Below, one piece after another: positions 8,877 to 23,315 of a stretch of 64,000 nucleotides of DNA. Each line of letters begins with the position of its first letter. Position 1 is the stretch's first letter. The DNA lies in the IMG/VR virus record IMGVR_UViG_3300042524_000214, positions 38,663 through 102,662 of that record; one strand, given 5' to 3'. Source of the DNA: a virus. Taxonomy: Duplodnaviria; Heunggongvirae; Uroviricota; Caudoviricetes. The position numbers and the translations under genes were made by a program. The notes below the pieces were generated by a model. That model was given only the letters and a program-made list of their open reading frames with translations, searched no databases and had not been told where the DNA came from.

Positions 8877-8899
8877 GGGGTTTTAAACTAACTAATCTT

Positions 8900-9058
8900 A
8901 TGTTATACATTATTCTTTTTTTGGTTTGCATTATTGGGCTTATTGCTCACGCTTGGTACGTTAACAAGACGGACAAGTTCAGATACATTGACTATTGTAT
9001 CTTCTGTATTTTATCTATCACACCTTTGATGTGTATAGTTGATTGGATTGTAGGTTAA
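8900..9058 (+). CDS. small hydrophobic membrane peptide (52 aa)
   Basis: Not in the ORF track (under 60 aa). ATG preceded by the AACTAACTAATCTT junction; product MLYIILFLVCIIGLIAHAWYV..., followed by a hairpin at 9068. Confidence 0.3.
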   Translation: MLYIILFLVCIIGLIAHAWYVNKTDKFRYIDYCIFCILSITPLMCIVDWIVG

Positions 9059-9067
9059 ACAATAAAT

Positions 9068-9090
9068 GCCCCTTGAAAGAGGGGCTATTT
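9068..9090 (+). terminator. hairpin terminator (GCCCCT-TGAAAG-AGGGGC), same motif as at 8855
   Basis: perfect 6-bp stem, weak T-run TATTT. Confidence 0.4.
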
Positions 9091-9689
9091 AAAACGATAC
9101 TTGGGGCAGACCATTTAGCAAAGCGAGATTGCAGTTATCGACCATTTGTAGCACGTTAAAGATTTTAGTTTATGGGTTTCTATTTTGTTGCTTGTGAAGA
9201 TTGTACCTAGGAAATGCAATGTTCAGTGCTAATGAAGATAAAAAATGAAACGCTTTAAAGTAGTTGGGTTAGTAACGTTCCTACCTTGTGAATACTTGTA
9301 AAGGTAAATTTGTTTAGATTTTTTTATTGTTTCACTTGCATATCCGGGAAGTTCTTTGTAGCTTTGCGGTATACTAATTAAAATTTATTATTATGATGTT
9401 ATGGGCAGTTCTTTTAATCGTGTGTATCATATTACTTAATATGAAACCAAATCGTTAATTATGAGAGTAGAGATAGTATTGTTAGAGTTCGGTGTTCAAG
9501 CGGACATCTTTAAGGGGAAGACATTAGTAGGTACAATGTTGGGGATAACAATGGCAAACCTTTGTCAGAGTATTCACGATGTGTATCATATAGATATATT
9601 CGGTCAAGTAGAATTGAATTAGTTAGGTTGATACTTTTCAAAGAGGGGAGAAAGGGGAGCAGAAATGTTCCTCTTTTTTTTGCATAAAA

Positions 9690-9721
9690 CTTTTTTTATT
9701 GAAAAGTATTTTGTATCTTTG
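9690..9721 (+). promoter_or_regulatory. sigma-A promoter (-7 TATCTTTG 9714-9721)
   Basis: TAnnTTTG consensus. Confidence 0.45.
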
Positions 9722-9755
9722 TATTGGCAATGGTGCCGATTTAAAACTATTTAAT

Positions 9756-10337
9756 ATGGAAAATTTATTTAATGGCTTACAAGTAGTAGGTGGAGTAATC
9801 AAAGTAACAACTATTTCTGAAACCGCATCAGTAGAAGTAAGCGGTAGGTTTACTCTTGAAAGAGGTAACTTTAAACAAGAGTTCTCTTATTGGGCAAGAA
9901 CTTACGAGAGGTTTGATAACCACGCAAAGATTGATGATTTTGATACGGAAGAACACAAATGTTCTTTGGGGGAATTACCTATTGATAGTTTGAGTTCCCT
10001 AAAAACCACATTAACTAATTCGGGGTTGACTACTTTGGCAAATAGTTTAGGGTTCAGTAATGAAGAAGTAGTTGCTGCAATGCGTTTCCACGTACAAAAC
10101 CATAAGATTTTTAAAGCAGTTTATGGGAAAAAAGTTATCTTGTGGGACTTGTTGTCAACAGAGGAACAAGCGGAAGAAACTTTAGCTTACGTCCTTAACA
10201 ACTATGATAGTTGTCCAAACTATGTTAAACAACAATGTGGTATTGTGGTGGTTGATGAAGAGGGGAATGTTATTCCAAACGCTATTCCAACCAAAGAACA
10301 AGTGAGGGAAAAGTTTTTAAGTTTAGGAACTAACTAA
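9756..10337 (+). CDS. hypothetical protein
   Basis: ORF track starts at 9699, which overlaps the promoter; ATG at 9756 (MENLFNG) chosen as start. Confidence 0.5.
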   Translation: MENLFNGLQVVGGVIKVTTISETASVEVSGRFTLERGNFKQEFSYWARTYERFDNHAKIDDFDTEEHKCSLGELPIDSLSSLKTTLTNSGLTTLANSLGFSNEEVVAAMRFHVQNHKIFKAVYGKKVILWDLLSTEEQAEETLAYVLNNYDSCPNYVKQQCGIVVVDEEGNVIPNAIPTKEQVREKFLSLGTN

Positions 10338-10354
10338 TCTAAAAGTAACTACAA

Positions 10355-10382
10355 AGAGGGGGCAAAATTGCCCTCTTTTTTT
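10355..10382 (+). terminator. intrinsic terminator
   Basis: AGAGGG...CCCTCT hairpin followed by TTTTTTT. Confidence 0.55.
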
Positions 10383-10394
10383 GTACCTAAAAGC

Positions 10395-10425
10395 TTAGAT
10401 ATATGGAAACTATTTTGTACCTTTG
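10395..10425 (+). promoter_or_regulatory. sigma-A promoter (-7 TACCTTTG 10418-10425)
   Basis: TAnnTTTG consensus. Confidence 0.45.
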
Positions 10426-10452
10426 ATAATTATTAATACTAACTAATCTATT

Positions 10453-10671
10453 ATGGCACAAGAATTTATTTTAAGAGAGAATGTTTTAACCGACAACGTT
10501 TTGCTTTTAGCTAACGAGGGTAAAGTTTTCAAAGGCGGTTACATCGCTATAATCAAAGAGTACACGTATCAAAATTCGTGGTCGGATAAATTGGGGGTAA
10601 AGAGGTTTAGAAACGAGGAGAGGTTAAATAACTACTTGAACAAGAACTACCCCGACTTTGAGAGGTACTAA
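10453..10671 (+). CDS. hypothetical protein
   Basis: 72-aa ORF. Confidence 0.5.
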   Translation: MAQEFILRENVLTDNVLLLANEGKVFKGGYIAIIKEYTYQNSWSDKLGVKRFRNEERLNNYLNKNYPDFERY

Positions 10672-10689
10672 ATTAACTAATGTGAAAAC

Positions 10690-11091: not shown

Positions 11092-11132
11092 TCCTATGAT
11101 TGTAACGAAGCAATTATCTTACATTAAGTAGT

Positions 11133-11468
11133 ATGAAAAAAGTAGTAGTAAACATTGGGTTAAACATTGGAGCAGAAGAACCACAACAACAACTATCAAG
11201 AACGTTGATTTCTTTGTTAGGTTATTACGCATTAACTAGTGTAAGAGTTGAAGAAGTGGGGGTGTATAAGGGGAGCGAGGAGCGTACACTAGTAGCTTAT
11301 TTTCAAACTAGTTCAGAAGAAACTTTAGTTAGTGTATTGTCTTATTTTTGCAGAGATTTGTACCAAGAAGCTATTGCTTATAAGTGTGAAGGAGTGGGAG
11401 ATATAGCTTTTAATCCTAGTTATACGGGGGAGCAGTTTCCATTCGACCAACAATTTTTTATAGATTAA
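11133..11468 (+). CDS. hypothetical protein
   Basis: 111-aa ORF. Confidence 0.5.
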   Translation: MKKVVVNIGLNIGAEEPQQQLSRTLISLLGYYALTSVRVEEVGVYKGSEERTLVAYFQTSSEETLVSVLSYFCRDLYQEAIAYKCEGVGDIAFNPSYTGEQFPFDQQFFID

Positions 11469-11489
11469 TAAAAATAATTGCAAAAAAGT

Positions 11490-11520
11490 TTTGCAGTATC
11501 AAAAATAAACATTAAATTTG
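11490..11520 (+). promoter_or_regulatory. sigma-A promoter (-33 TTTG, -7 TAAATTTG 11513-11520)
   Basis: consensus, 19-nt spacing. Confidence 0.55.
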
Positions 11521-11543
11521 TCAAACATTTAAAAACTATCAAG

Positions 11544-12122
11544 ATGAACAGATTAAAAGTAGTACACGACAGCAGTGCAGACAGCCCTAGAAGTTGGGAT
11601 AATTTAGGTAAAATGATTTGTTTCCACAATCGTTATGATTTAGGAGATAAACACAACTACAATGCAGACGATTATTCGGGTTGGGAAGAGATGAAGAAAG
11701 CAATTATCAAGGAAGAAAATCCAGCAGTAATTCTACCTTTGTACCTATACGACCATTCGGGTATAAGTATCAGTACAAGCCCGTTCAGTTGTCGTTGGGA
11801 TAGCGGACAGATAGGTTTCGTATTAGTTAGTAAGAAACAAGTGGTTGAGGAGTTCGGGGGAGTTCGAGTTTCAAGTAAGAAAAGAGTAAAGATTGAAAGC
11901 ATCATTGAAGCAGAAGTAAAAACCTATACTCAATATGTTGAGGGGGAAGTGTACGGGTTTCAAATAGTAGATGAAGACGATGAAGTAATTGATAGTTGTT
12001 ATGGTTTCTACGGAACGGATTTTGCTACTAATGGTATGTTAGATTATATCGACCACGAGTTGTTGGGAGTAGCAGAGGGGGGAGTTGTAGCATTGCTAGA
12101 AGAAGCAGAGATTGAATATTAG
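11544..12122 (+). CDS. hypothetical protein
   Basis: ORF track starts at 11478, inside the promoter; first ATG downstream of the -7 box (MNRLK) used. Confidence 0.5.
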   Translation: MNRLKVVHDSSADSPRSWDNLGKMICFHNRYDLGDKHNYNADDYSGWEEMKKAIIKEENPAVILPLYLYDHSGISISTSPFSCRWDSGQIGFVLVSKKQVVEEFGGVRVSSKKRVKIESIIEAEVKTYTQYVEGEVYGFQIVDEDDEVIDSCYGFYGTDFATNGMLDYIDHELLGVAEGGVVALLEEAEIEY

Positions 12123-12186
12123 ATTAGTTAGTTCAGAACCCCTCAATAAAAATGTTGGGGGGCGATGAAAAAAAGTTAAAAAAAGT

Positions 12187-12217
12187 TTTGTAGATTAGAA
12201 TAAAAGTATTATCTTTA
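12187..12217 (+). promoter_or_regulatory. sigma-A promoter (-7 TATCTTTA variant)
   Basis: TTTG 12187-12190, TATCTTTA 12210-12217. Confidence 0.45.
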
Positions 12218-12240
12218 CATAGAATTTAAAACTTATCATT

Positions 12241-12435
12241 ATGAAAAAAACAGCAGACGGGTTTGTATGGTTATTAGTAACCGAGAAAGCAAAAGACATT
12301 TGGAACAGCGGTTTATTCTCTTTGTTCATTCTTTATGAAGACGACAGCGAGAGTTTGATAGAAGACTTTGACGACCTAAACAGAGCGTTAGAGAACGGAT
12401 TGAGTATTGGAATTGAAGTAGGATTTGTAAATTAA
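12241..12435 (+). CDS. hypothetical small acidic protein
   Basis: 64-aa ORF. Confidence 0.45.
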   Translation: MKKTADGFVWLLVTEKAKDIWNSGLFSLFILYEDDSESLIEDFDDLNRALENGLSIGIEVGFVN

Positions 12436-12440
12436 TTAGT

Positions 12441-12734
12441 ATGAAAATAGTAACACAAAATGCAGTAGCGTGTTTCCGTAATGGGGGTAACGCAAAGTTC
12501 AGTAACACAGAAGTAGTAACTGAAAACGGAGTATCAAAGATGTATTTGTTCGGCAACCTTATAGCAACCCTTGAACGCAACGTTGGGGGAGTTATGAAGA
12601 TAACCAATGCAGGTTGGAGAAGTAACACTACAAAGGAACGCCTTAATGGATTACCTAATGTAAGTATCCAACAGAAGAAAGGCGATTGGTACTTAAACGG
12701 GGCATTGTGGAACGGACAATTAAAGCAAGTTTAG
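12441..12734 (+). CDS. hypothetical protein
   Basis: 97-aa ORF. Confidence 0.45.
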   Translation: MKIVTQNAVACFRNGGNAKFSNTEVVTENGVSKMYLFGNLIATLERNVGGVMKITNAGWRSNTTKERLNGLPNVSIQQKKGDWYLNGALWNGQLKQV

Positions 12735-12820
12735 ATTAGTTAATACGAAGATTTTTAGGGGGGGGTTTTGAATTTGTCTTCCCCCAAAAAAATCGGGTTA
12801 ACAAAAACAGATTAGATAAT

Positions 12821-13147: not shown

Positions 13148-13363
13148 GTGAATAATATAATCGAGCATTCTAAAGAAACAGCAAAAATGGACAAAGAATT
13201 AACTAATTTAATAGTTGGAGCAGTATTAAGTGGACAAAAAGGAGTAATGGTTGGCTCAATGGAAGTAAGTTGGAAACCATTAAAGGCAAACCTAACATCA
13301 AAACAACGTGAAGCAGAAGCAGAACGCATAGCCAAGATGAATATACAAGCTATCAAGGGGTAG
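13148..13363 (+). CDS. hypothetical protein
   Basis: 71-aa ORF. Confidence 0.4.
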   Translation: MNNIIEHSKETAKMDKELTNLIVGAVLSGQKGVMVGSMEVSWKPLKANLTSKQREAEAERIAKMNIQAIKG

Positions 13364-14006: not shown

Positions 14007-14207
14007 ATGGAAAGAGTATTATGCAAAGAAACTAACAAACAAGTTAGTTTAATTCATCAAGGTTTTGACATCGCAATTATCAAACGAGATAGTTCAGAAA
14101 GTCAAGAGTGTGTTAACATCGTAACACTAGCGGTAAATAGGAGAACTAGACCAAGAGATATTTTTGGTTACAAACCCTCTTTAAAAAAAAGACAAAACTT
14201 TTTTTAA
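14007..14207 (+). CDS. hypothetical protein
   Basis: 66-aa ORF. Confidence 0.35.
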   Translation: MERVLCKETNKQVSLIHQGFDIAIIKRDSSESQECVNIVTLAVNRRTRPRDIFGYKPSLKKRQNFF

Positions 14208-14214
14208 TTTTTTC

Positions 14215-14245
14215 TTGCATATATAAAAACTAATAGCTATATTTG
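14215..14245 (+). promoter_or_regulatory. sigma-A promoter (-33 TTG 14215, -7 TATATTTG 14238-14245)
   Basis: consensus, 20-nt spacing. Confidence 0.55.
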
Positions 14246-14270
14246 TACTCTAATTAAAACACTATCAAAG

Positions 14271-14597
14271 ATGAACACAAGAAATTTAAACAGCATTTTG
14301 GACGACCTAGAAAGAGATACAGCAATGGTATTCTCACAGCTACTAGAACAGCAAGAAGAGTTTGTAATCTTTTCAGAGGAAGACCTAGAAAACGACAGCC
14401 CCGATGACTACCTAGAAGTTCGTAACGATATGACGGGAGATGTATTTGACATACACCCATTGAAAGTTACTAGAGAGGGTATTCTAGGAGTTACAACAGA
14501 CGGAGAGTTTGTAAGACATTTATGTTTGCTATCAGATTTATCTAGCACACAAGACCGAATTAACTTATGTGAATTAATGGAAAACCTTTTAAACTAA
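14271..14597 (+). CDS. hypothetical acidic protein
   Basis: 108-aa ORF ending ...LLN followed by the junction motif. Confidence 0.5.
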   Translation: MNTRNLNSILDDLERDTAMVFSQLLEQQEEFVIFSEEDLENDSPDDYLEVRNDMTGDVFDIHPLKVTREGILGVTTDGEFVRHLCLLSDLSSTQDRINLCELMENLLN

Positions 14598-14619
14598 CTA
14601 GTATGGAATTAGAAAAGAA

Positions 14620-14775
14620 AATTAAAGCATTAATCATAGAATTAAAGCAAGAGAACGAAAGTCGTAGTATAGCAAAAAATTCCTCTAATTGTTCGGAATA
14701 TAATTATGCAGTATTAACGCATAAATACAACAACACTTTAGAGATAGTAAAAAGATTAGAAACCACTTTAAACTA
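14620..14775 (+). CDS. hypothetical small protein (51 aa)
   Basis: Not in ORF track. Bounded by two copies of TAAACTAACTAGTATG; ends ...TTLN. Confidence 0.35.
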
Positions 14776-14781
14776 ACTAGT

Positions 14782-15138
14782 ATGAAATCAGTACACGAAT
14801 TGTCGGAAGACGAGTTACAAGAATTAAGAAGTCGTTGGTATCAACAACACCTAGACGATGGTTCTTTAGAAGAGGTTATGGAGTATGACCCCGAAGATGA
14901 AGATAACGTACCTATGGATATTGTAATAGCATATTACGAGGGAACGTATTTTGTAGAAGAAGATTTTTGGTGCAACCTTTCAGAAAATGAAGAGAGCGTT
15001 ATAGAAGCCCTTAATTTAACCAAAGTACAAGTTTTACAGATTGTAAAAGAGTGGTACACAAATGGAATGTGTCCCGACATTTTTCAGAATGAAGAGGGAG
15101 AAGACCTAGAAGAATTTTTAGAAAAGTATTTAAACTAA
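14782..15138 (+). CDS. hypothetical highly acidic protein (DNA-mimic candidate)
   Basis: 118 aa, strongly enriched in D/E. Confidence 0.5.
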   Translation: MKSVHELSEDELQELRSRWYQQHLDDGSLEEVMEYDPEDEDNVPMDIVIAYYEGTYFVEEDFWCNLSENEESVIEALNLTKVQVLQIVKEWYTNGMCPDIFQNEEGEDLEEFLEKYLN

Positions 15139-15143
15139 CTAGT

Positions 15144-15326
15144 ATGAAAGCAATAGTTACAGAAATTCAGTATGATACAGACGGAGAAGTAGTAACACTA
15201 CCAACTCAACTTGAAATTGATATACCAAGCGATATTGAAGAAGACAACATTGATGATTTTGTTTCAGATGAGGTTTCTAACATCACGGGATATTGCCACT
15301 TTGGTTTTGAGATGAAAATAATTTAA
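15144..15326 (+). CDS. hypothetical acidic protein
   Basis: 60-aa ORF. Confidence 0.4.
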   Translation: MKAIVTEIQYDTDGEVVTLPTQLEIDIPSDIEEDNIDDFVSDEVSNITGYCHFGFEMKII

Positions 15327-15343
15327 AAAAACTTTGAAAAAAG

Positions 15344-15375: not shown

Positions 15376-15398
15376 TCTAGGATTTAAAACAAACACAT

Positions 15399-16647: not shown

Positions 16648-16652
16648 TTAAG

Positions 16653-17102: not shown

Positions 17103-17103
17103 T

Positions 17104-17271
17104 ATGAAACAGAATACATTTGTGATTATAGCAGTCTTATGTTTTGCTTTTTTAACCCACGTTTTTAGTGGTGGAATGGCTCTTACATTTTGGCAGTCAG
17201 TAGTAGGGTATTTAGTTTGTTTTGTTTTTTGGCTGTTGATATTAGCACCGGCATTTGATGTAAAAAAATAA
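17104..17271 (+). CDS. small membrane protein (about 56 aa)
   Basis: Not in ORF track; junction ATAACTAGTTAGTATG; product MKQNTFVIIAVLCFAFLTHVFSGGMALTFWQSVVGYLVCFVFWLLILAPAF... Confidence 0.3.
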   Translation: MKQNTFVIIAVLCFAFLTHVFSGGMALTFWQSVVGYLVCFVFWLLILAPAFDVKK

Positions 17272-17686: not shown

Positions 17687-17845
17687 ATGGAAGCAAACAA
17701 AGTAAGAGTAGGATTTTGTGAACATACACAAAACGAGGTAGTTCAAGAAAAATTTGGCGAAGAGTGGGTATGTATCCACGATGAAACTAGAGAGCAAGAG
17801 TTGGAAAATATTAACGAGGTAAAAAATCTACTTAAAACTAACTAA
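17687..17845 (+). CDS. hypothetical small protein (52 aa)
   Basis: Not in ORF track; starts TAGTATGGAAGC and ends at the junction AAAACTAACTAATATG. Confidence 0.3.
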   Translation: MEANKVRVGFCEHTQNEVVQEKFGEEWVCIHDETREQELENINEVKNLLKTN

Positions 17846-17846
17846 T

Positions 17847-18242
17847 ATGAATATAGCAGTAGTAGAATACGTTGACGGAAATTCCGGAAATGATTGTGAA
17901 AGGTTTAGATTAACTAATTCAAAAGGAGAGTTAGTTTACGAAAGAGATTATGGCTCTTGCACACAAAGTGTAGATGAATACTTTGATGATTTCCTAGAGT
18001 TCATTCGACCTAAAAAAGAGGTTACGATTATACCAAAAGGGCAGAAAGATATTTTGAAGAAAGCGATTGACCTACTTCAAGATGCAGTTGTAAAAATTGG
18101 CTCAACAGATGAGTACTTGATGTTTGACCTAGTTACTTTGAAAGCCCTCTTAAATTATGAGGTTGGAGTAGCATTGACAGACCAAGAAAAAGAAAGATTT
18201 ACTTACCAAAACGGAGTTGATTTTCCGGAATACATTAACTAA
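17847..18242 (+). CDS. hypothetical protein
   Basis: 131-aa ORF. Confidence 0.5.
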   Translation: MNIAVVEYVDGNSGNDCERFRLTNSKGELVYERDYGSCTQSVDEYFDDFLEFIRPKKEVTIIPKGQKDILKKAIDLLQDAVVKIGSTDEYLMFDLVTLKALLNYEVGVALTDQEKERFTYQNGVDFPEYIN

Positions 18243-18243
18243 T

Positions 18244-18543
18244 ATGAAAAGAGAAACATTCAGATATTACCAAGTAGTTGCTACAAATAAAGTAATGGTA
18301 ATCGACAGCCACGATGTAGTAGTATTCATCACTTACAACCAATTTGGCGAAATTGAGGGAATTAATTTCCACTATGGGGCAGACGTACTTGACCAAGATT
18401 TCAAAAAACCTTGCCCTCACGTTACAGAATTGTTCAACCGAGTTTCGGGAGAGTACTCTTCACACAAAGACAAAAGTGAGAAGAAAAGAATTTTACTTGC
18501 TGTTAAATTATTCACAGATGCTTTCATCGTAGGTACTTTGTAA
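18244..18543 (+). CDS. hypothetical protein
   Basis: ORF track 18217; ATG at 18244 after junction motif. Confidence 0.45.
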   Translation: MKRETFRYYQVVATNKVMVIDSHDVVVFITYNQFGEIEGINFHYGADVLDQDFKKPCPHVTELFNRVSGEYSSHKDKSEKKRILLAVKLFTDAFIVGTL

Positions 18544-18869: not shown

Positions 18870-19068
18870 ATTACACGACACAGACTATGTTCTTTGGGAT
18901 AAAGCCAACGATAGATTAGTTAGTTTTACAGACGGAGAAGTTGTTATTTATGGCGACAAAGAAGAAGCGGAGATTGATTGCTATGGTAATGAGCATGTTA
19001 CTAGATGTACAGATTTGCCCGAACATCATCAAGAAGCCCTAAAAAAACAAATTGAAAAATATTATTAA
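18856..19068 (+). CDS. hypothetical protein
   Basis: ORF track start 18850 is TTG; first ATG at 18856. Confidence 0.4.
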   Translation: MSSIKLHDTDYVLWDKANDRLVSFTDGEVVIYGDKEEAEIDCYGNEHVTRCTDLPEHHQEALKKQIEKYY

Positions 19069-19074
19069 AAAAGT

Positions 19075-19104
19075 TTTGTAATTAGGAAAAAAGTAGTATC
19101 TTTA
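19075..19104 (+). promoter_or_regulatory. sigma-A promoter (-7 TATCTTTA 19097-19104)
   Basis: TTTG 19075-19078, 18-nt spacing; followed by the conserved leader GGAGAATTTAAAA...ATG. Confidence 0.5.
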
Positions 19105-19127
19105 CGGAGAATTTAAAATCAGAAATT

Positions 19128-19862
19128 ATGTGTAAGACTATCAGAGAAAAAATACTAGAACAAATTGACCTAGTTGAAGAGTTACAAAGTGTAGCCGGAA
19201 TAAATATTGTAAATTGTGGAAATTGTGGTTCAGTACTTCTTCATAGAATAGTACCGATAGAAACGGATACACCAATAGAAGATTACGACATAACTTGTCC
19301 TTATTGTGATTTTCAGAGTGAACCTTGTGATTTCCCCGATTTTTTGTATCAAGGTATGGAGCATTCCTTGATTGTAGATATTGTATTAACTAGTTTGAAA
19401 GAGAACGATACTTTATCCGTTGACCAAGCCAAAAGTGTTGAAGATGCTATTGAAAATGGTTACATAAGTTCTTCTGACATATATGAAGATTTTGTTGAGT
19501 ATGTTCTTGAAACTATAAATTCAGACAGAGATATAATAGAAGATTACAAAGAACACTATCAGAATTTATTATCGCACAAAGAAAATTTAAAAATAATTCA
19601 AGAAAGTTTTGGTAGTTCGGAAAAAAACACTATCTTTACGGAGAATTTAAAACCTATCAGTATGCAATTAGAAAAACAACATCGAGAAGCGTTGATAAAC
19701 GAACTCGAAAAAGCCAAAGAAGAAAAAGATTTGGCAGAATTAGTTATCAGAAAAAAATCAGATGATAATTTAGACGGGTGGCACGACATTCGTTTGTTTA
19801 TGGCTCAACAGAAAATTAAGTTGATTGAGCAAAGTTTAATTGATAACCAAATTGACTTTTAG
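19128..19862 (+). CDS. zinc-ribbon protein; C-terminal 64 aa may be a separately expressed product (internal promoter-like module at 19600-19668)
   Basis: NCGNCGS...CPYCDF cysteine pairs; continuous 244-aa ORF containing a duplicated promoter/leader. Confidence 0.45.
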   Translation: MCKTIREKILEQIDLVEELQSVAGINIVNCGNCGSVLLHRIVPIETDTPIEDYDITCPYCDFQSEPCDFPDFLYQGMEHSLIVDIVLTSLKENDTLSVDQAKSVEDAIENGYISSSDIYEDFVEYVLETINSDRDIIEDYKEHYQNLLSHKENLKIIQESFGSSEKNTIFTENLKPISMQLEKQHREALINELEKAKEEKDLAELVIRKKSDDNLDGWHDIRLFMAQQKIKLIEQSLIDNQIDF

Positions 19863-19863
19863 T

Positions 19864-20106
19864 ATGGAAGCAAAACCTAGAGTAAGAAAGGAAGAGTTGT
19901 TAGATTGGTTATTTTCAGATAGTGATGATGCCAAGCAGTTAGGAGTTAGAATTATCCGACAACTTAAAGACACCGGTAGTGCTACAATTACCACACAAGA
20001 GTTGTTTAATGAGTGTGGATACATTCCGGCACACATTCTTCTAAATGAAGAAGAGTTCCACGAAGACGATGAGTTTGAACCAAAAGAAGTTGAATTAATA
20101 AATTAG
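19864..20106 (+). CDS. hypothetical acidic protein
   Basis: ATG at 19864 directly after TAG (TAGTATGGAAGC). Confidence 0.45.
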   Translation: MEAKPRVRKEELLDWLFSDSDDAKQLGVRIIRQLKDTGSATITTQELFNECGYIPAHILLNEEEFHEDDEFEPKEVELIN

Positions 20107-20111
20107 TTAGT

Positions 20112-20336
20112 ATGAAAAAGTTTTATTATATTGCTCGTCCTCAACTAGAAGATATTGGGGATTTTAAAGAAACTAATGGTTGGAAAGATATTTCAATCTA
20201 CAAAGTTGAAGATGATGATTTAGTACACGTTGTTACTTTTACAACAGAACTAGAAGCAAATAGCCAAGAAGAAGTTTTGGAATTTATTGACCAAGACATA
20301 GCACCCGATGAAACCATTAAACTACTAGAACTTTAA
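20112..20336 (+). CDS. hypothetical acidic protein
   Basis: 74-aa ORF after junction AATTAGTTAGTATG. Confidence 0.45.
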   Translation: MKKFYYIARPQLEDIGDFKETNGWKDISIYKVEDDDLVHVVTFTTELEANSQEEVLEFIDQDIAPDETIKLLEL

Positions 20337-20547: not shown

Positions 20548-20903
20548 TTAGAGATTTTGACGAGTTAAGAGATATTGCTATCCGAATGGTTGATAACCTA
20601 GTGGAGCAAGGGTTTATTAAAGATTGCACAGACGAACCCGATGACAGCACCGAGTTTGATGTACAAGATTTATTACTAGAAACGTTGATAGACAGCTTAC
20701 GACAAGATGAGTGTATTATTCCGGATTATGTTCCAACAGCTTATGTTGAGTTGAAAGAAGTTAATGAAGACTACGAAATTGCTTTTATTAGTGCTGACGA
20801 AATTCCTTTAGGTATCTTTACTATTTTTAAAGACCACGAACAAGAAGATAGACCTTACGTTACGATTGATTTCGAGGTTAGGTACATTGATGAATTAATT
20901 TAA
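20544..20903 (+). CDS. hypothetical highly acidic protein
   Basis: 119-aa ORF, D/E-rich. Confidence 0.45.
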   Translation: MIRDFDELRDIAIRMVDNLVEQGFIKDCTDEPDDSTEFDVQDLLLETLIDSLRQDECIIPDYVPTAYVELKEVNEDYEIAFISADEIPLGIFTIFKDHEQEDRPYVTIDFEVRYIDELI

Positions 20904-20909
20904 AAAAAG

Positions 20910-20941
20910 TTTGCATAGTTAAAAAATAAGTATTATATTTG
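20910..20941 (+). promoter_or_regulatory. sigma-A promoter (-33 TTTG 20910, -7 TATATTTG 20934-20941)
   Basis: consensus, 20-nt spacing. Confidence 0.55.
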
Positions 20942-20964
20942 TAGAGAATTTAAAACCTATCAAA

Positions 20965-21495
20965 ATGAAAAATGTAACAATCAAGTCAGCACTAGAAACT
21001 CAAATTTTGGAAGCCCAATTTGAATTAGTGCAAGAGTATTTAAACAGCATAGAAAACATTAATTGTGGTGGCTGTGGTATTTCAGCTTATGCGATGTTTC
21101 TTTGGCTACGCAAAATGAATATGTTGACAGAAGACGTTAAAGTAGTCTTTTTGCACCACTCTTATTCAGAGGGAGATTTTCAAACTAACCAATCTTTTTA
21201 TCTACAAGGGATAGGCAATCCGGTTGCTCCGGAACACGTTGCTATTATGAAAGACGGGTTTATGATTGATAGTTCGGGAGTTTACAAGAAAGCAAATGAT
21301 TACGCTTATAATCTAGCAGTTTCTATTGACAAAGCCGAAGACTTTTTAGTCAATTCTTTGAACGACAATAATTGGAATAGTTGGTTTGATAGACCGAACA
21401 TTGCTCCAATGATTGAGAAAAAATTAGGCATCTCTTTCAGAGCCGATATGCGAAGACTAAATAAGTCGTGGGAACTAGAAGAACAATCAAACTAA
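20965..21495 (+). CDS. hypothetical protein
   Basis: 176-aa ORF. Confidence 0.5.
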   Translation: MKNVTIKSALETQILEAQFELVQEYLNSIENINCGGCGISAYAMFLWLRKMNMLTEDVKVVFLHHSYSEGDFQTNQSFYLQGIGNPVAPEHVAIMKDGFMIDSSGVYKKANDYAYNLAVSIDKAEDFLVNSLNDNNWNSWFDRPNIAPMIEKKLGISFRADMRRLNKSWELEEQSN

Positions 21496-21500
21496 CTAGT

Positions 21501-21908
21501 ATGAAATCATTTATCAGAGTTCAAGACAAGCACGGAAGAGGTATGTTTCAATATGGAAACCAAGACAACTTTCAAACAGCCGGTGTTTATGATATAGACG
21601 ATTTGCAAGTACTAGCAGAAAGACACTTAAATTTTCCTAATTTATGGCTAGACAAAAAATTAGCCAAGTTCCTAGAGGGAAAATTAGGTAAAAATTTTGA
21701 AGCTAGTAAATTAGATTACAGATTTGCTTTCAAGAACCTAGACCAATTTGAAGAATGGGTATTGAGGGAAGAAGTTGCTGTTTTAAATGACTATGGATAC
21801 AGAGTTTACAAAATCGAAACAGACGACTTCAAAGAAAGTGATTTCCAAGTACTTTTCAATGTAAATAGTATAAAGTCAGTAACCGACATAACAGATTTAT
21901 TTTTATGA
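21501..21908 (+). CDS. hypothetical protein
   Basis: ORF track 21468; ATG at 21501 after AACTAACTAGTATG. Confidence 0.45.
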   Translation: MKSFIRVQDKHGRGMFQYGNQDNFQTAGVYDIDDLQVLAERHLNFPNLWLDKKLAKFLEGKLGKNFEASKLDYRFAFKNLDQFEEWVLREEVAVLNDYGYRVYKIETDDFKESDFQVLFNVNSIKSVTDITDLFL

Positions 21909-22189
21909 TAACAGATTGGGTTTGTACAGATTTAGATAACGAGCAGTACGGAAGACAGCTTTCAGAAACTCGATTTGAGTTTAAAGAAAAAAATCGTGGA
22001 CTTTTAGATTACGATGAAGATGAGATTATCGAATTTGGAGTTGATTTAAGCGATTATTCCGAAAAAGAACTATATGACGTTGCTAGAACATATTATGGTT
22101 CATTAGATGAACTAAAAGAGCAATGTGGCGATAGTTGGCAATGGATTTTAGCCGAGTGTATCTTTGAGCAAGAAAGCGGTTTGTATTAA
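21905..22189 (+). CDS. hypothetical acidic protein
   Basis: 94-aa ORF. Confidence 0.45.
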   Translation: MITDWVCTDLDNEQYGRQLSETRFEFKEKNRGLLDYDEDEIIEFGVDLSDYSEKELYDVARTYYGSLDELKEQCGDSWQWILAECIFEQESGLY

Positions 22190-22290
22190 TGTTTGTACCA
22201 AAGTGTTTTCAATGCGGTAGAGTTCTAAAATATTTAGGACTATCAAGAATGGGTTTCCCTAGATATTCTAGGTGTAGATGCAGAAAATAA
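22189..22290 (+). CDS. tiny Cys-rich peptide (33 aa)
   Basis: Not in ORF track; TAATG overlap; product MFVPKCFQCGRVLKYLGLSRMGFPRYSRCRCRK. Confidence 0.2.
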   Translation: MFVPKCFQCGRVLKYLGLSRMGFPRYSRCRCRK

Positions 22291-22308
22291 AAAATAATTC
22301 AAAAAAAG

Positions 22309-22339
22309 TTTGGTAGTTACAAAAAAAGCACTACCTTTG
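22309..22339 (+). promoter_or_regulatory. sigma-A promoter (-33 TTTG 22309, -7 TACCTTTG 22332-22339)
   Basis: consensus; repeated promoter module. Confidence 0.55.
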
Positions 22340-22368
22340 TAAAAAATTTATAACCAATATTAATAAAA

Positions 22369-22650
22369 ATGAGAGTAACAGAAGTTGTTGTGTCGGAAAA
22401 TCAAGTAGTAGTTAAGTCAACAGATAGAGTTGTTGGTATCACTCAAACCAAAAAAGGTAACAATTTGTTACATTTTAAAGCACCTACATCAAAAGTAGGC
22501 ACAGATAAAGGAGTAAAGCACTTCTTGTCAGAAGACGGGTTAGTAAAAAACTCAATGTTAGGTCTTTCAGACGAAGCAATCATAGATTTGACTTTCGCTT
22601 TAGCCCACTATGTTGAAGAAGTATTAGGAGTTAGTGTAATAGAAATGTAA
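22369..22650 (+). CDS. hypothetical protein
   Basis: 93-aa ORF. Confidence 0.5.
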   Translation: MRVTEVVVSENQVVVKSTDRVVGITQTKKGNNLLHFKAPTSKVGTDKGVKHFLSEDGLVKNSMLGLSDEAIIDLTFALAHYVEEVLGVSVIEM

Positions 22651-22655
22651 ATAAG

Positions 22656-22686
22656 TATCCCCCCGATTATGTCGGGGGATATTTTA
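22656..22686 (+). terminator. hairpin terminator
   Basis: ATCCCCCC-GATTATGTC-GGGGGAT followed by ATTTT. Confidence 0.45.
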
Positions 22687-22699
22687 AAACCTTATCAGA

Positions 22700-23077
22700 A
22701 TGAATAAAATAACAGCAGAGCAAAGATTAGTCTTCATAAGACAAGATGTTGCTAGAATATTAGAGCAATTACCGGAAGTATTATTAGAAACACCTATCGA
22801 GGGTTTTGAAAATTTAGGGGTTGTATTAAACAACATTGCCATTGCTTCTGACGAAACAGATGTAGAACCTTTACATTGGTTAATAACGTGGTTTGAAGTG
22901 TTTATATACGATGATGAGGAAGGTACACACACTCTTGCCAGTTTTGACACAGAGAAACAAGCGAAAGACTTTATATATGATTACTCAATGAGGTATCCGG
23001 AAGCAGAGTTGTTTTGTGATGAGTGGAAGTCTAACGCAGACGGAAGCGGAGTAGAAAAATTATATCCATTTAATTAA
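22700..23077 (+). CDS. hypothetical acidic protein
   Basis: 125-aa ORF. Confidence 0.5.
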   Translation: MNKITAEQRLVFIRQDVARILEQLPEVLLETPIEGFENLGVVLNNIAIASDETDVEPLHWLITWFEVFIYDDEEGTHTLASFDTEKQAKDFIYDYSMRYPEAELFCDEWKSNADGSGVEKLYPFN

Positions 23078-23087
23078 ACTAACTAAT

Positions 23088-23315
23088 ATGAGATTTTCAG
23101 TAGAATATAACCCAAGTATCTCTAAACACGCAGAGAGATTTATTCAATCAGCAATCACACCAAGTATGACCTCCGAAGACGGAGATAGCAGTCAATATCC
23201 TATTGACTTCTGCATTGAGAGTTTAGAAGAAGAGAACCAAGACGAAGTGTTTAACCAAGACATCACTTATTTGAAACAACTTTCAGATGAAGATGTAGCT
23301 TATATCGAGATTTAA
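23088..23315 (+). CDS. hypothetical acidic protein
   Basis: 75-aa ORF after TAAACTAACTAATATG. Confidence 0.45.
   Translation: MRFSVEYNPSISKHAERFIQSAITPSMTSEDGDSSQYPIDFCIESLEEENQDEVFNQDITYLKQLSDEDVAYIEI

What the first reader, a model, noticed from the sequence alone, without database searches (positions are those of the whole stretch)
8880..23101. Conserved 16-nt gene-junction module TAAACTAACTAGTATG joining early genes
At least 18 gene boundaries carry the same or near-identical junction: 8870, 10330, 10440, 12430, 14583, 14766, 15128, 15540, 15840, 16030, 17090, 17830, 18230, 20100, 21488, 23078 and 33748. The upstream stop TAA is followed by ACTAACTAG(T), giving stops in other frames, then ATGAAA. 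The motif also encodes the last residues of the upstream protein, usually Leu/Ile-Asn: ...LLN, ...TLN, ...YLN, ...ILN, ...DLN, ...YIN. A second conserved 5' leader, GGAGAATTTAAAAC(C/T)TATCA-nn-ATG, follows most promoters at 12220, 14250, 19105, 19648, 20941 and 22680. Together these act as fixed cassette boundaries. This may reflect a Shine-Dalgarno-independent reinitiation or coupling signal in a Bacteroidetes host, a recombination linker allowing modular shuffling of small early genes, or a processing site.
Basis: seen in the sequence. Interest (0 to 1): 0.6.

Follow-up and report, generated by a model that had tools for sequence, protein, structure and literature searches.

The report
Reusable stop–start linker joining phage genes
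A large phage of a Bacteroidetes-type host joins many small early genes with one short reusable sequence that ends one gene, starts the next without a classical ribosome-binding site, and marks the points where genes and gene pieces have been swapped between related phages.

Summary
TAAACTAACTAGTATG occurs 3 times exactly and 23 times within 3 mismatches (1.8 expected). Its core, A-YTAR-YTAR-T, occurs 37 times (3.7 expected), and 27 of those lie at 7-24 kb.

The motif is anchored to the downstream ATG. Upstream genes stop at any of its three TAR triplets, 1, 5 or 10 nt before the ATG. It has A at -12 to -10, -7/-6 and -3 and no GGAGG. That fits the Shine-Dalgarno-less initiation region of Flavobacteria. 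The promoter leaders carry a similar UUAAA(A) block, centred within 1-3 nt of the same distance.

Translation signals alone do not explain everything:
- Orphan copies sit at gene ends before terminators.
- Perfect in-frame copies inside genes are 9-fold enriched.
- The motif is dense only in this phage clade, not in Cellulophaga phage phi4:1 or in unrelated contigs.
- Gene pairs joined by it stay adjacent in relatives less often (23% against 50%).
- A near-identical strain differs by five insertion, deletion or replacement events. Their breakpoints fall in motif copies or in promoter/leader cassettes.

Best reading: a promoter-less stop/start adaptor that also serves as the crossover point for cassette shuffling. 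It is a new variant of the PeSL-type linkers of T4-like phages. Function remains untested.

The parts
8884..8902 (+). Junction-type copy TAAACTAACTAATCTT+ATG(8900). It directly follows terminator hairpin 8865-8883, and no upstream ORF ends in it.
10327..10343 (+). Orphan copy AACTAACTAATCTAAAA at the 3' end of gene 9756-10337, followed by a terminator and a promoter. It forms a direct repeat with 10436-10450.
10436..10455 (+). Copy ATACTAACTAATCTATT+ATG(10453) inside a promoter leader.
10669..10689 (+). Orphan junction TAAATTAACTAATGTGAAAAC followed by a terminator. It is homologous to the intact junction TAAACTAACTAATATGAAAAC of L039/L040. ATG has become GTG and the downstream gene is gone.
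11120..11135 (+). Junction-type copy TACATTAAGTAGT+ATG(11133) in a promoter leader, with no upstream ORF.
12120..12135 (+). Orphan copy in reverse orientation, TAGATTAGTTAGTTCA, at the end of gene 11544-12122 and before a terminator.
12428..12443 (+). Junction TAAATTAATTAGT+ATG(12441). The upstream stop is 5 nt before the ATG.
12732..12747 (+). Orphan copy TAGATTAGTTAATACG at the end of gene 12441-12734, before a GC hairpin.
14587..14605 (+). Exact junction TTTTAAACTAACTAGT+ATG(14603). The upstream gene ends ...LLN-TAA.
14766..14784 (+). Exact junction (ATG 14782). Gene 14603-14776, between this copy and the previous one, is absent from L038.
15128..15146 (+). Exact junction (ATG 15144). Its 5' edge is the right breakpoint of the 149-nt difference to strain L171/L164.
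15538..15556 (+). Junction TTTTAAATTAGATAGT+ATG(15554). The upstream gene stops at the first TAA (10 nt gap). The same upstream gene is joined to four different genes in four phages.
15834..15852 (+). Junction TTCTAAATTAGTTAGT+ATG(15850), with the core in reverse orientation.
16028..16046 (+). Variant junction ATTTAAACTAGTTTAT+ATG(16044).
16637..16655 (+). Variant junction TTTTAGACTAGTTAAG+ATG(16653). Gene 16653-17102 is absent from L038.
17088..17106 (+). Junction CTTATAACTAGTTAGT+ATG(17104).
17831..17849 (+). Junction CTTAAAACTAACTAAT+ATG(17847).
18228..18246 (+). Junction GAATACATTAACTAAT+ATG(18244).
20096..20114 (+). Junction TAATAAATTAGTTAGT+ATG(20112). The two genes after it are absent from L038, where the same junction leads straight into the homologue of gene 20544.
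21485..21503 (+). Junction AATCAAACTAACTAGT+ATG(21501).
23072..23090 (+). Junction AATTAAACTAACTAAT+ATG(23088), conserved in L038.
24254..24269 (+). Junction copy outside the reported range (ATG 24267).
24906..24921 (+). Junction copy outside the reported range (ATG 24919).
33748..33763 (+). Junction-type copy CAAATTAGTTAGT+ATG(33761), right after a tRNA-like 3' end. No upstream ORF.
38727..38742 (+). Junction copy in the replication-module region (ATG 38740), conserved in L001.
11469..11546 (+). Promoter-leader cassette: AT-rich upstream part, -33 TTTG, -7 TAnnTTTG, leader TTTAAAAACTATCAAG+ATG.
12166..12243 (+). Promoter-leader cassette with leader AGAATTTAAAACTTATCATT+ATG.
14194..14273 (+). 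Atypical promoter-leader cassette. In strain L171/L164 it is replaced, together with gene 14007-14207, by a canonical cassette.
15324..15402 (+). Promoter-leader cassette.
19053..19130 (+). Promoter-leader cassette.
19587..19666 (+). Promoter-leader cassette lying inside the open frame 19128-19862.
20890..20967 (+). Promoter-leader cassette.
22288..22371 (+). Promoter cassette with a divergent leader.
22656..22702 (+). GC hairpin followed by leader-type ATATTTTAAAACCTTATCAGA+ATG(22700), with no promoter.
9651..9723 (+). Terminator-promoter cassette. It is the crossover partner of 10353-10428 in the event that removes gene 9756-10337 in strain L171.
10353..10428 (+). Terminator-promoter cassette, the second crossover partner.
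10010..10019 (+). In-frame internal core ATTAACTAAT (Leu-Thr-Asn) in gene 9756-10337.
11231..11240 (+). In-frame internal core ATTAACTAGT in gene 11133-11468.
11822..11831 (+). In-frame internal core ATTAGTTAGT in gene 11544-12122.
13198..13207 (+). In-frame internal core ATTAACTAAT.
17909..17918 (+). In-frame internal core with both palindromic flanks (TTTAG-ATTAACTAAT-TCAAAA) in gene 17847-18242, conserved in L034.
18915..18924 (+). In-frame internal core ATTAGTTAGT.
19385..19394 (+). In-frame internal core ATTAACTAGT. Homology to the L039/L040 clade ends about 24 nt upstream.
23672..23681 (+). In-frame internal core ACTAACTAAT.

Best explanation
The motif is a promoter-less inter-gene adaptor of about 20 nt. 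Its consensus is TTTAA-A-YTAR-YTAR-T-ATGAAA, and it is copied throughout the early, hyper-variable region of one clade of Bacteroidetes-type phages. It appears to do two things.

1) Expression (inferred from anatomy). The motif is fixed relative to the downstream ATG. It supplies the features that Flavobacterium ribosomes use instead of a Shine-Dalgarno sequence: an A-run at -12 to -10, A at -7/-6 and -3, almost no G, and weak structure. Its four YTAR units also place TAA/TAG stops in the two other reading frames. An upstream gene in either of those frames therefore ends 1, 5 or 10 nt before the next start. The third frame stays open.

2) Evolution (shown as a correlation; the mechanism is inferred). 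The many near-identical copies, together with the 80-nt promoter-leader and terminator cassettes, are the places where crossovers join genes and gene segments. A crossover in the adaptor always leaves a terminated upstream gene and a start-ready downstream gene. In the open frame it leaves an in-frame Leu-Thr/Val-Asn/Ser joint. Such recombinants survive, and the adaptor spreads and is homogenised within each genome.

The data do not decide whether the crossovers use only short homology or a factor that recognises the R/Y-palindromic core.
For: Anchoring and initiation features:
- The start-aligned profile of 42 early genes shows T-15, A-12/-11/-10 (33/29/29 of 42), T-8, A-7, T-4, A-3 (34/42) and T-1 (32/42). 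G is rare. The other 74 + strand genes share only A-12 and A-3.
- F. johnsoniae ribosome profiling and reporters identify A at -3, -6, -12 and -13 and an A-run at -14 to -11 as the positive determinants in a Shine-Dalgarno-less host (PMC6847099).
- Eleven early promoters are of the Bacteroidetes -33 TTTG / -7 TAnnTTTG type.
- Promoter leaders carry a similar UUAAA(A) block. It starts at -14 in junction genes and mostly at -17 to -14 in the others.
- The upstream stop used varies, with gaps of 1, 5 and 10 nt (7, 17 and 12 cases in five phages). The motif therefore belongs to the downstream start, and the stops it does not use are nevertheless kept.
- Four copies have no upstream ORF ending in them.
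- The junctions fold weakly, with z-scores from -1.1 to +1.1.

Clade specificity:
- Early regions of relatives hold 9-20 cores per 10 kb. Their replication modules hold 0-1.8.
- Cellulophaga phage phi4:1 is at chance level but has the generic A-12/A-11/A-3 pattern.
- About 40 unrelated contigs with a single exact hit are not enriched.

Shuffling:
- The same gene is preceded by the motif in one phage and by a promoter leader or nothing in another. One gene is joined through the motif to four different genes in four phages.
- Differences between the window and L038 are whole cassettes, several of them flanked by two motif copies.
- Neighbours are conserved at 8/35 motif junctions against 82/163 other junctions (Fisher P=0.0045).
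- A strain 94-100% identical to the window differs by five events in 6 kb. Four of the 10 breakpoints have a core within 15 nt (0.47 expected, P=0.0014). Three more lie inside promoter/leader cassettes.
- In-frame cores sit at sub-genic mosaic joints in L171.
- Each genome prefers its own variant: TAG at -4 to -2 in 13/17 junctions here, against TAA in 7 of 9-10 in three relatives.
Against: - No expression data exist. The role in translation rests on resemblance to host rules established in another genus.
- A-13, one of the host determinants, is T in the junction version.
- Between the window and L038, motif junctions are not clearly over-represented among breakpoints compared with other gene boundaries (about 10 of 21 against 17 of 42 starts; my count).
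- The strain-level sample is small (five events, effectively one strain pair). The adjacency comparisons are not phylogenetically independent.
- Ten to twenty nt of homology is short for ordinary homologous recombination.
- Perfect in-frame internal copies are 9.4-fold enriched, but one-mismatch copies are not (1.1-fold). That looks like active maintenance of an exact site and could instead point to a sequence-specific factor.
- Selection alone would also place surviving breakpoints at gene boundaries.
Confidence: 0.55

Rival explanations
1. Translation signal only. The motif is simply this clade's optimal Shine-Dalgarno-less ribosome-binding region merged with the upstream stop codon. Its repetition reflects convergent selection, and breakpoints fall there only because recombinants broken elsewhere die.
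For: The motif is anchored to the ATG, shares host-type determinants with the promoter leaders and folds weakly. Between the window and L038, motif junctions show no clear excess among breakpoints.
Against: This reading does not explain several observations:
- Orphan copies at gene ends before terminators, in both orientations.
- TAR triplets that no upstream gene uses are still kept.
- Nine-fold enrichment of perfect in-frame copies by codon choice.
- Absence from phi4:1 and from other phages.
- Genome-specific variants.
- Breakpoints inside cores between near-identical strains.
Confidence: 0.2
2. Target of a sequence-specific factor acting on RNA. The motif would be the operator of a translational repressor, or the cleavage site of an early-mRNA endoribonuclease. 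These would be functional analogues of T4 RegA, which binds AU-rich start regions of early mRNAs, and T4 RegB, which cuts GGAG in early Shine-Dalgarno regions. The factor would shut off early genes as a block.
For: - The motif is concentrated in early operons and overlaps the start codon.
- Exact copies are maintained inside coding sequence without a halo of decayed copies.
- The early region is full of small proteins without known domains that could encode such a factor.
The T4 parallels rest on my own knowledge of that system.
Against: - No RNA-binding protein or nuclease was identified.
- The motif is used in both orientations on the sense strand, which gives different RNA sequences.
- No conserved structure and no Rfam family.
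- It does not by itself explain the link with breakpoints.
Confidence: 0.1
3. Double-stranded DNA site for a dimeric protein. The extended consensus TTTAR-AYTARYTART-YTAAA is an R/Y palindrome of about 20 bp. It could be bound or cut by a phage nuclease, recombinase or regulator, which would make the exchange site-directed rather than homology-driven.
For: - Non-ATG copies show symmetric flanks. Several individual copies carry both flanks.
- The motif is used in either orientation.
- Exact internal copies are maintained in genes on both strands and are kept in the closest relative while the flanks diverge.
- HNH/EndoVII-type nuclease genes lie next to and inside the region.
Against: - The symmetry follows automatically from tandem YTAR units, each of which is self-complementary at the R/Y level.
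- The strict abutment to the ATG (15 copies) needs a translation-level reason.
- Internal sites turn over between more distant relatives.
- No binding protein is known.
Confidence: 0.12
4. Obligatory termination-reinitiation signal. Ribosomes finishing the upstream gene restart at the ATG, and the motif works only in that coupled mode.
For: Stops lie 1, 5 or 10 nt before the ATG at 36 of 39 motif junctions in five phages.
Against: Copies at 8884, 10438, 11120 and 33748 precede genes with no upstream ORF ending in them. Many neighbouring junctions achieve tight coupling by ATGA/TAATG overlap without the motif.
Confidence: 0.1
5. Compositional or chance artefact of an AT-rich genome.
For: The genome has 34% G+C, and TAA/TAG-rich strings are common there.
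Against: - Dinucleotide shuffles give 1.8 against 23 and 3.65 against 37.
- Codon shuffles give 1.7 and a codon-pair Markov model gives 1.6, against 16 observed.
- The motif is strand- and position-specific and limited to one clade.
Confidence: 0.01

Closest known systems
PeSL (promoter-early stem-loop) regulatory cassettes of T4-type phages (Arbiol et al. 2010, PMC2839356; Comeau et al. 2014, PMC4122927)
   Same: - Repeated short regulatory modules flank small orphan genes in hyper-variable early regions.
- Differences between close relatives are insertions, deletions and replacements bounded by the repeats.
- The repeats end in the translation start signal and the ATG.
- GGGG...CCCC hairpins and strong host-type promoters with AT-rich upstream parts are present. 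The window's 80-nt promoter-leader and terminator cassettes match this description closely.
- One strain-level deletion here has its crossover inside two such cassettes.
   Different: - The junction motif itself has no promoter and no stem-loop.
- It is only 10-20 nt long, against about 100 nt for a PeSL.
- It lies inside operons.
- It carries stops in two frames and an open third frame.
- It also occurs in-frame inside genes at mosaic joints.
- Its translation signal is not a Shine-Dalgarno sequence.
- The host is of the Bacteroidetes type, not Escherichia coli.
- Mini-circles were not tested here.
Shine-Dalgarno-independent initiation region of Bacteroidetes ('Kozak-like' A-3/A-6 plus an A-run at -14 to -11; Baez et al. 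2019, PMC6847099)
   Same: A at -3, -6/-7 and -12 to -10. G is rare and there is no GGAGG. Structure is weak. Host-type -33/-7 promoters lie upstream.
   Different: The host signal is a loose nucleotide preference. Here a nearly fixed 16-20-mer is repeated. It includes conserved C/T positions and TAR triplets that the host rule does not require. A-13 is T.
Linker or boundary sequences of the modular theory of phage evolution (Susskind and Botstein; lambdoid phage gene boundaries). Cited from my own knowledge.
   Same: Short conserved sequences at gene boundaries are proposed to be the sites where modules are exchanged.
   Different: Such linkers have rarely been seen as one explicit, many-copy motif. 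This one is explicit, counted, clade-wide and tied to the reading frame.
Integron gene cassettes and attC sites
   Same: Arrays of small promoter-less genes, each bounded by a related imperfectly palindromic site, are expressed from upstream promoters. Gene content varies between relatives.
   Different: attC sites are 57-141 bp structured hairpins recombined by an IntI integrase at a GTTRRRY core. Here the site is 10-20 nt and unstructured. No integrase was seen among the proteins scanned, and no GTTRRRY core is present.
T4 RegB cleavage sites and RegA operators in early-gene start regions. Cited from my own knowledge.
   Same: A short sequence shared by the start regions of many early genes could allow them to be switched off together.
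   Different: RegB cuts GGAG in Shine-Dalgarno sequences and RegA binds a loose AU-rich region. No homologue and no cleavage data exist here.
Stop-start overlaps (ATGA, TAATG) used for translational coupling in phage operons
   Same: The stop lies within a few nucleotides of the next start. The window uses both kinds of junction side by side.
   Different: Overlaps are gene-pair specific. The motif is a transferable unit that works with any upstream gene in two frames, and junctions made by it are less conserved.

Membership tests
Shine-Dalgarno ribosome-binding site | Purine-rich GGAGG-like stretch 5-10 nt upstream of the start, complementary to the 16S rRNA 3' end | tested here: not met
   G counts at -16 to -3 are 0-8 of 42. 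The motif contains no GGAG (sequence).
Bacteroidetes Shine-Dalgarno-less initiation region (Baez 2019) | Adenine at -3 | tested here: met
   A-3 in 34/42 early and 55/74 other genes. Determinant as given in PMC6847099.
Bacteroidetes Shine-Dalgarno-less initiation region (Baez 2019) | Adenine at -6 | tested here: inconclusive
   A-6 in 20/42 and G in 8/42. The position behaves as the R of a TAR stop. A-7 is 25/42.
Bacteroidetes Shine-Dalgarno-less initiation region (Baez 2019) | A-run around -14 to -11 (A-12 and A-13 most important) | tested here: met
   A-12, A-11 and A-10 are 33, 29 and 29 of 42. A-13 is only 19/42, with T in the junction version. The UUAAA block sits at -17 to -14 in both classes.
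Bacteroidetes Shine-Dalgarno-less initiation region (Baez 2019) | Low secondary structure around the start | tested here: inconclusive
   81-nt windows fold at -5 to -11 kcal/mol with z from -1.1 to +1.1. This is weak, but not weaker than shuffles.
Bacteroidetes Shine-Dalgarno-less initiation region (Baez 2019) | Measured stimulation of translation in a Bacteroidetes host | not testable with these tools
   Needs reporters or ribosome profiling.
PeSL-type mobile regulatory cassette | Contains a strong host-type early promoter | tested here: not met
   The 16-20-nt junction motif has no -33/-7 boxes. The neighbouring 80-nt cassettes do, in 11 copies.
PeSL-type mobile regulatory cassette | Contains a stable stem-loop (GGGG...CCCC) acting as a terminator | tested here: not met
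   The junction motif is unstructured. Hairpins exist in separate terminator cassettes (families D11, D16 and D20).
PeSL-type mobile regulatory cassette | Flanks orphan genes in a hyper-variable region; indels between close relatives are bounded by copies | tested here: met
   Only weak, sub-threshold Pfam hits for 18 of 20 early proteins scanned. Cassette-sized differences are bounded by copies. Breakpoints near cores: P=0.0014.
PeSL-type mobile regulatory cassette | Recombination between copies yields mini-circles during infection | not testable with these tools
   Needs inverse PCR or long reads from infected cells.
Integron attC cassette site | 57-141-bp imperfect inverted repeat folding into a hairpin | tested here: not met
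   The motif is 10-20 nt and no hairpin is predicted.
Integron attC cassette site | IntI tyrosine integrase next to the array | tested here: inconclusive
   No integrase among the roughly 40 larger proteins scanned. Small ORFs and the rest of the genome were not scanned.
Termination-reinitiation coupling site | Upstream stop within a few nucleotides of the downstream start | tested here: met
   Gaps of 1, 5 or 10 nt at 36 of 39 motif junctions.
Termination-reinitiation coupling site | Downstream translation depends on upstream translation | not testable with these tools
   Four copies lack an upstream ORF, which argues that dependence is not obligatory.
Any curated RNA family (Rfam 15) | Match to a covariance model at or near the gathering score | tested here: not met
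   The only matches at gathering score are the tRNAs and the permuted tmRNA, all outside the junctions. In 9050-13700 only two weak sub-threshold matches, neither at a junction.

The most novel reading that the evidence does not exclude
The R/Y-palindromic core, with its TTTAR/YTAAA flanks, is the recognition site of a dedicated phage-encoded nuclease, recombinase or annealing system. The early region would then be an integrase-less, integron-like cassette exchanger. Its attachment site would be 'reading-frame aware': double stops in two frames, an open third frame, and a built-in Shine-Dalgarno-less start. It could swap whole genes between cistrons and protein segments within genes. This would explain why perfect internal copies are maintained without a halo of decayed ones.
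Probability: 0.2. Interest if true: 0.85.

Novelty: new variant of a known kind. Interest (0 to 1): 0.55.

Why it matters
- Translation. Phages of Bacteroidetes cannot use Shine-Dalgarno sequences, and how they organise translation of densely packed early operons is hardly studied. An explicit, countable start module gives a direct handle for reporter and ribosome-profiling tests of initiation in this phylum.
- Genome evolution. The motif extends the PeSL idea, that regulatory repeats act as the crossover points which build hyper-variable regions. Here the linker is much smaller and promoter-less, keeps every recombinant translatable, and even appears at joints inside genes.
- Open question. 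This makes the long-standing 'linker sequence' hypothesis of modular phage evolution testable in a new system.
- Practical uses. Recognising the motif improves start-codon and small-gene calling in such phages. It also offers a natural design for stop/start adaptors in Bacteroidetes synthetic operons.

Tried and rejected
- GenBank phages by DNA: no near match. Ribonucleotide reductase and DNA polymerase protein searches returned hits too broad to place the phage. The DnaB helicase gave Cellulophaga phages phi4:1 and phi17:2 at 38% identity.
- Relatives through gene 16653-17102: none found. That gene is unique to this phage.
- crAss-like phage phi14:2 early promoters: the paper reports no common early motif, so it is not relevant.
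- Promoter reading of the motif: rejected. Canonical host-type promoters are already present, and copies occur inside genes and at gene 3' ends.
- Paralogy of the flanking genes as the source of the repeat: rejected. Only three small families have paralogues, and none of them explains the junctions.
- Extended similarity upstream of the 16-mer (families D5, D6 and D9): not convincing beyond about 20 nt on inspection. Not used as evidence.
- Positional conservation of internal copies: kept in the closest relative, lost in more distant ones.
- Bacterial genomes. The 21-mer has no hit. The 16-mer gives 54 single scattered hits, 23 of them in Bacteroidota, with no multi-copy locus. There is no prophage or host array, and the Bacteroidota excess was not normalised, so it is not used.
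- Suppressor-tRNA or recoding explanation for the double stops: no evidence. Long ORFs read normally with the standard bacterial code.
- Pairing of the motif with 16S rRNA, and resemblance to the T7 epsilon element, boxA or STAR-protein sites: recalled resemblances only. None could be tested and none is used.
- Further look-ups of window proteins: these returned only identical copies of the same phage.

Full report
**1. What the window is**

The window is part of a large phage genome. It encodes GroEL, both ribonucleotide reductase subunits, a DnaB-type helicase, a family A DNA polymerase, an RNA ligase and an Mre11-type exonuclease. It also holds tRNA genes and a permuted tmRNA. It has no close relative among GenBank phages. 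The nearest cultured relatives are Cellulophaga baltica phages phi4:1 and phi17:2, at 38% helicase identity.

The stretch from 8.8 to 24 kb holds about 42 small + strand genes. Eighteen of the 20 early proteins scanned gave only weak, sub-threshold Pfam hits. Eleven copies of an about 80-nt promoter-leader cassette drive them. The boxes of this cassette, -33 TTTG and -7 TAnnTTTG, are the Bacteroidetes primary-sigma consensus (PMC6847099). The host is therefore very probably a member of the Bacteroidetes.

**2.

TAAACTAACTAGTATG occurs three times exactly, against 0 in shuffles. It occurs 23 times within three mismatches, against 1.81 expected.

The core can be written A-YTAR-YTAR-T. That pattern occurs 37 times against 3.65 in dinucleotide shuffles, whose maximum is 10. 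Twenty-seven of the 37 lie between 7.1 and 23.7 kb.

Fifteen cores abut an ATG directly on the + strand, against one on the - strand. The looser form TAR-N-TAR-T-ATG gives 21 junctions. The conserved leader is confirmed too.

**3. Anatomy**

Early gene starts were aligned on the ATG:

| Position | Base | Count of 42 |
|---|---|---|
| -15 | T | 23 |
| -12 / -11 / -10 | A | 33 / 29 / 29 |
| -9 | C or T | 31 |
| -8 | T | 25 |
| -7 | A | 25 |
| -4 | T | 25 |
| -3 | A | 34 |
| -1 | T | 32 |

The start codon is usually followed by AAA. G is almost absent upstream. The remaining 74 + strand genes share only A-12 and A-3.

The upstream gene ends at whichever TAR triplet is in its frame. In five phages the gap to the ATG is 1 nt seven times, 5 nt seventeen times and 10 nt twelve times. 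The motif is therefore positioned by the downstream start, not by the upstream stop.

The triplets that a given upstream gene does not use are kept as TAA or TAG all the same. Because the four YTAR units are spaced 5, 4 and 5 nt apart, two frames each meet two in-frame stops 9 nt apart, and the third frame is open. This follows directly from the sequence.

Copies at 8884, 10438, 11120 and 33748 precede genes without any upstream ORF ending in them. The motif is therefore not only a reinitiation device. Junction RNAs are weakly folded and show no conserved hairpin. No Rfam family matches.

**4. Link to host translation**

In Flavobacterium johnsoniae, which ignores Shine-Dalgarno sequences, ribosome profiling and gfp reporters showed which bases stimulate initiation. 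They are adenines at -3, -6, -12 and -13 and an A-run at -14 to -11 (PMC6847099). The junction motif has A at -3, -6/-7 and -12 to -10.

The promoter leaders carry TTTAAAAC in nearly the same position. UUAAA starts at -14 in junction genes and mostly at -17 to -14 in the others. Phage phi4:1 shows the same generic A-12/A-11/A-3 preference but not the motif.

I infer that the 5' half of the motif and A-3 are the start signal for the downstream gene. The junction version is the leader version rewritten to contain stop codons. This step is inference from anatomy. No expression data exist.

**5. What translation alone does not explain**

(a) Orphan copies lie at the ends of genes and are followed by terminators, in either orientation (10329, 10672, 12123, 12735). 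One of them, TAAATTAACTAATGTGAAAAC at 10669, is homologous to an intact junction in L039/L040, TAAACTAACTAATATGAAAAC. It still carries the first bases of the gene that is no longer there.

(b) Perfect in-frame copies inside genes, reading Leu-Thr/Val/Ala/Ile-Asn/Ser, number 16.
- Codon shuffles predict 1.7 and a codon-pair Markov model predicts 1.6.
- Of 59 such tripeptides, 16 use the motif-compatible codons, against 2.4 expected.
- One-mismatch copies are not enriched (29 against 25.4). Two-mismatch copies are slightly depleted (145 against 175).
- The same excess is seen in four relatives.
- Positions are shared with the closest relative, even where the flanks have diverged, but not with more distant ones.

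(c) Non-ATG copies, once oriented, show flanks TTTAR and YTAAA. The full consensus is then an R/Y palindrome of about 20 nt. Part of this symmetry is automatic, because each YTAR unit is its own reverse complement at the R/Y level.

(d) The motif is specific to this clade.
- Early regions of the relatives recovered from IMG/VR and from metagenomes hold 9-20 cores per 10 kb.
- Their replication modules hold 0-1.8.
- phi4:1 is at chance level.
- About 40 unrelated contigs that carry one exact copy are not enriched.
- No bacterial genome holds an array of it.

(e) Each genome prefers its own variant. TAG at -4 to -2 occurs in 13 of 17 junctions here. TAA occurs in 7 of 9-10 in three relatives (P = 0.013-0.04). 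This hints at homogenisation within genomes.

**6. Link to gene shuffling**

The early regions of relatives are strongly mosaic and reordered, and alignment blocks start and end at the junctions. Gene families were clustered across five phages:
- The same gene is preceded by the motif in one phage and by a promoter leader or nothing in another.
- The 47-residue gene at 15400-15543 is joined through the motif to four different downstream genes in four phages.
- Against L038, the genes 14603-14776 and 16653-17102 are single-cassette differences lying between two motif copies. L038 in turn has an extra gene between two copies of the 15541 junction.

Gene pairs joined by the motif remain neighbours in another phage in 8 of 35 comparisons. 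For all other junction types the figure is 82 of 163, and for tightly overlapping pairs 26 of 45 (Fisher P = 0.0045 and 0.0028). These comparisons are not phylogenetically independent. Between the window and L038 alone, motif junctions are not clearly over-represented among breakpoints (about 10 of 21, against 17 of 42 starts; my count).

**7. Strain-level evidence**

This is the sharpest evidence. The same phage occurs at 100% identity in several samples. A second strain is 94-100% identical in the shared parts (L171, L164/L172, L173, L174). It differs by five events within about 6 kb:

| Event | Window coordinates | What differs in the second strain | Where the breakpoints fall |
|---|---|---|---|
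| A | 9063-9317 | Replaced by 45 nt carrying a terminator | An orphan core, ATTAGCTAGT, lies in the new segment |
| B | Gene 9756-10337 | Missing | Crossover inside two copies of the terminator-promoter cassette |
| C | Gene 14007-14207 and its odd promoter | Replaced by a canonical promoter-leader cassette | Left: inside a core (GAAATTAGTTAGTTTGAAAA against GAAATTTTTAAGATATG). Right: inside the leader TTAAAAC |
| D | 50-residue C-terminal extension of gene 14782-15138 | Missing | Right: the 5' edge of the junction at 15131. L034 also has the short form |
| E | After 15307 | The gene continues | Into a segment with two in-frame cores; details below |

In event E, the first core lies 9 nt past the breakpoint. 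The second aligns with an internal core of an L034 gene. Homology to that gene starts 9 nt before the core.

Four of the ten breakpoints have a core within 15 nt, against 0.47 expected from core density (Poisson P = 0.0014). Three more lie in promoter or leader repeats. Internal copies therefore look like in-frame joints of sub-genic mosaics, which is the best available explanation for their excess. The sample is small and comes from essentially one strain pair.

**8. Synthesis**

I commit to a composite reading. The motif is a transferable stop/start adaptor. Its sequence satisfies the host's Shine-Dalgarno-less initiation rules for the gene that follows. It closes both other frames for whatever precedes it, and it leaves one frame open. 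Its many copies, together with the larger promoter and terminator cassettes, are where crossovers that survive selection occur. That spreads and homogenises the motif.

What is shown:
- anchoring to the ATG;
- variable use of the stops;
- clade and region specificity;
- enrichment inside genes at the level of codon choice;
- association with rearranged neighbourhoods and with recent breakpoints.

What is inferred:
- stimulation of initiation;
- the motif causing recombination, rather than merely being tolerated at its sites;
- the mechanism, whether short-homology annealing or a site-recognising enzyme.

The maintenance of perfect internal copies keeps a sequence-specific DNA or RNA factor in play.

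**9. Comparison with known systems**

The closest system is the PeSL cassette of T4-type phages. There, 100-nt promoter plus stem-loop repeats, ending in the Shine-Dalgarno sequence and the ATG, flank orphan genes. They mediate insertions, deletions and mini-circle formation (PMC2839356; PMC4122927).

The window's 80-nt promoter-leader and hairpin cassettes fit that description well, in a Bacteroidetes setting. The junction motif does not. It lacks the promoter and the stem-loop, is five to ten times shorter, sits within operons and within genes, and encodes frame logic. It is therefore a new variant, not a member.

It works like a Bacteroidetes initiation region but is far more fixed than the host rule requires. 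It resembles integron cassette boundaries only in concept, because the defining features of attC are not met.

**10. Verdict**

This is a real and statistically robust feature. It is ordinary in being a phage translation-start and junction signal. It is unusual in being an explicit, clade-wide, frame-aware linker that marks recombination joints between and within genes in a Shine-Dalgarno-less system. Interest is moderate to good (0.55). Novelty: a new variant of a known kind.

Noticed in passing
window 32791-33460: A phage-borne RNA gene cluster: tRNA-Arg(TCT), two tRNA-Met, and a permuted (two-piece type) tmRNA. The tmRNA matches RF04321 at 33092-33352 with 57 bits against a gathering score of 47. 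ARAGORN reads the tag peptide DNVYQLGGVQLRAVA.
   Followed up: partly
window 33470-33746: About 280 nt of non-coding sequence ending in a tRNA-like T-arm and acceptor end (GGGGGTTCGATTCCTCCCTCTTTT). It is immediately followed by a junction motif and ATG 33761. Neither ARAGORN nor Rfam calls it.
   Followed up: no
window 2412-2488: A tRNA with the unusual anticodon ACT (ARAGORN labels it Ser). It has a short variable arm and a low Rfam score of 42.9 bits. Its identity is unclear.
   Followed up: partly
window 10775-11010 (also L038 9234-9470, L039 9040-9275, L034 1050-1250): An about 230-nt conserved non-coding stretch directly after promoter 10741-10772. RNAalifold predicts 27 pairs, 6 of them with compensatory changes. 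There is no Rfam match. It is a candidate early non-coding RNA.
   Followed up: partly
window 13380-13640: A second G-rich non-coding stretch between genes in the early region, ending in a degenerate motif copy (TTTTAGATTAGATTGTTTAATT).
   Followed up: no
window 19128-19862: One open frame runs straight through a complete promoter-leader cassette (19587-19666). In L038 the same region is two genes. Either a stop codon was lost or this is a real fusion with an internal promoter.
   Followed up: partly
window 5873-6880 (-), 25067-25486, 25636-26154: Nuclease genes border or lie in the variable region. They are an HNH/endonuclease VII-type protein on the opposite strand just upstream, a pyrimidine-dimer glycosylase, and a second endonuclease VII domain protein.
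   Followed up: partly
window 57819-63545 (-): A 1908-residue ORF with no Pfam match. It resembles the 1914-residue virion structural protein gp035 of phage phi4:1 in size, strand and position next to the replication genes. It contains two in-frame motif cores that are conserved in the closest relative.
   Followed up: partly
window 41675-41698: The ThyX gene has two candidate starts 21 nt apart. The second (ATG 41696) is preceded by a perfect junction motif and may be the real one.
   Followed up: no
window 8857-8883 and 9061-9087; 22656-22680: The U-tract of several terminator hairpins runs straight into the TTTTAAAC start of the motif or leader. Terminator and start signal therefore share bases.
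   Followed up: no
loci L089-L142 (bacterial genomes): Of 54 single exact hits to the 16-mer in 185,579 genomes, 23 are in Bacteroidota. In 34 of the 54 the ATG opens an ORF of at least 60 codons. This was not normalised for composition or taxon sampling.
   Followed up: partly
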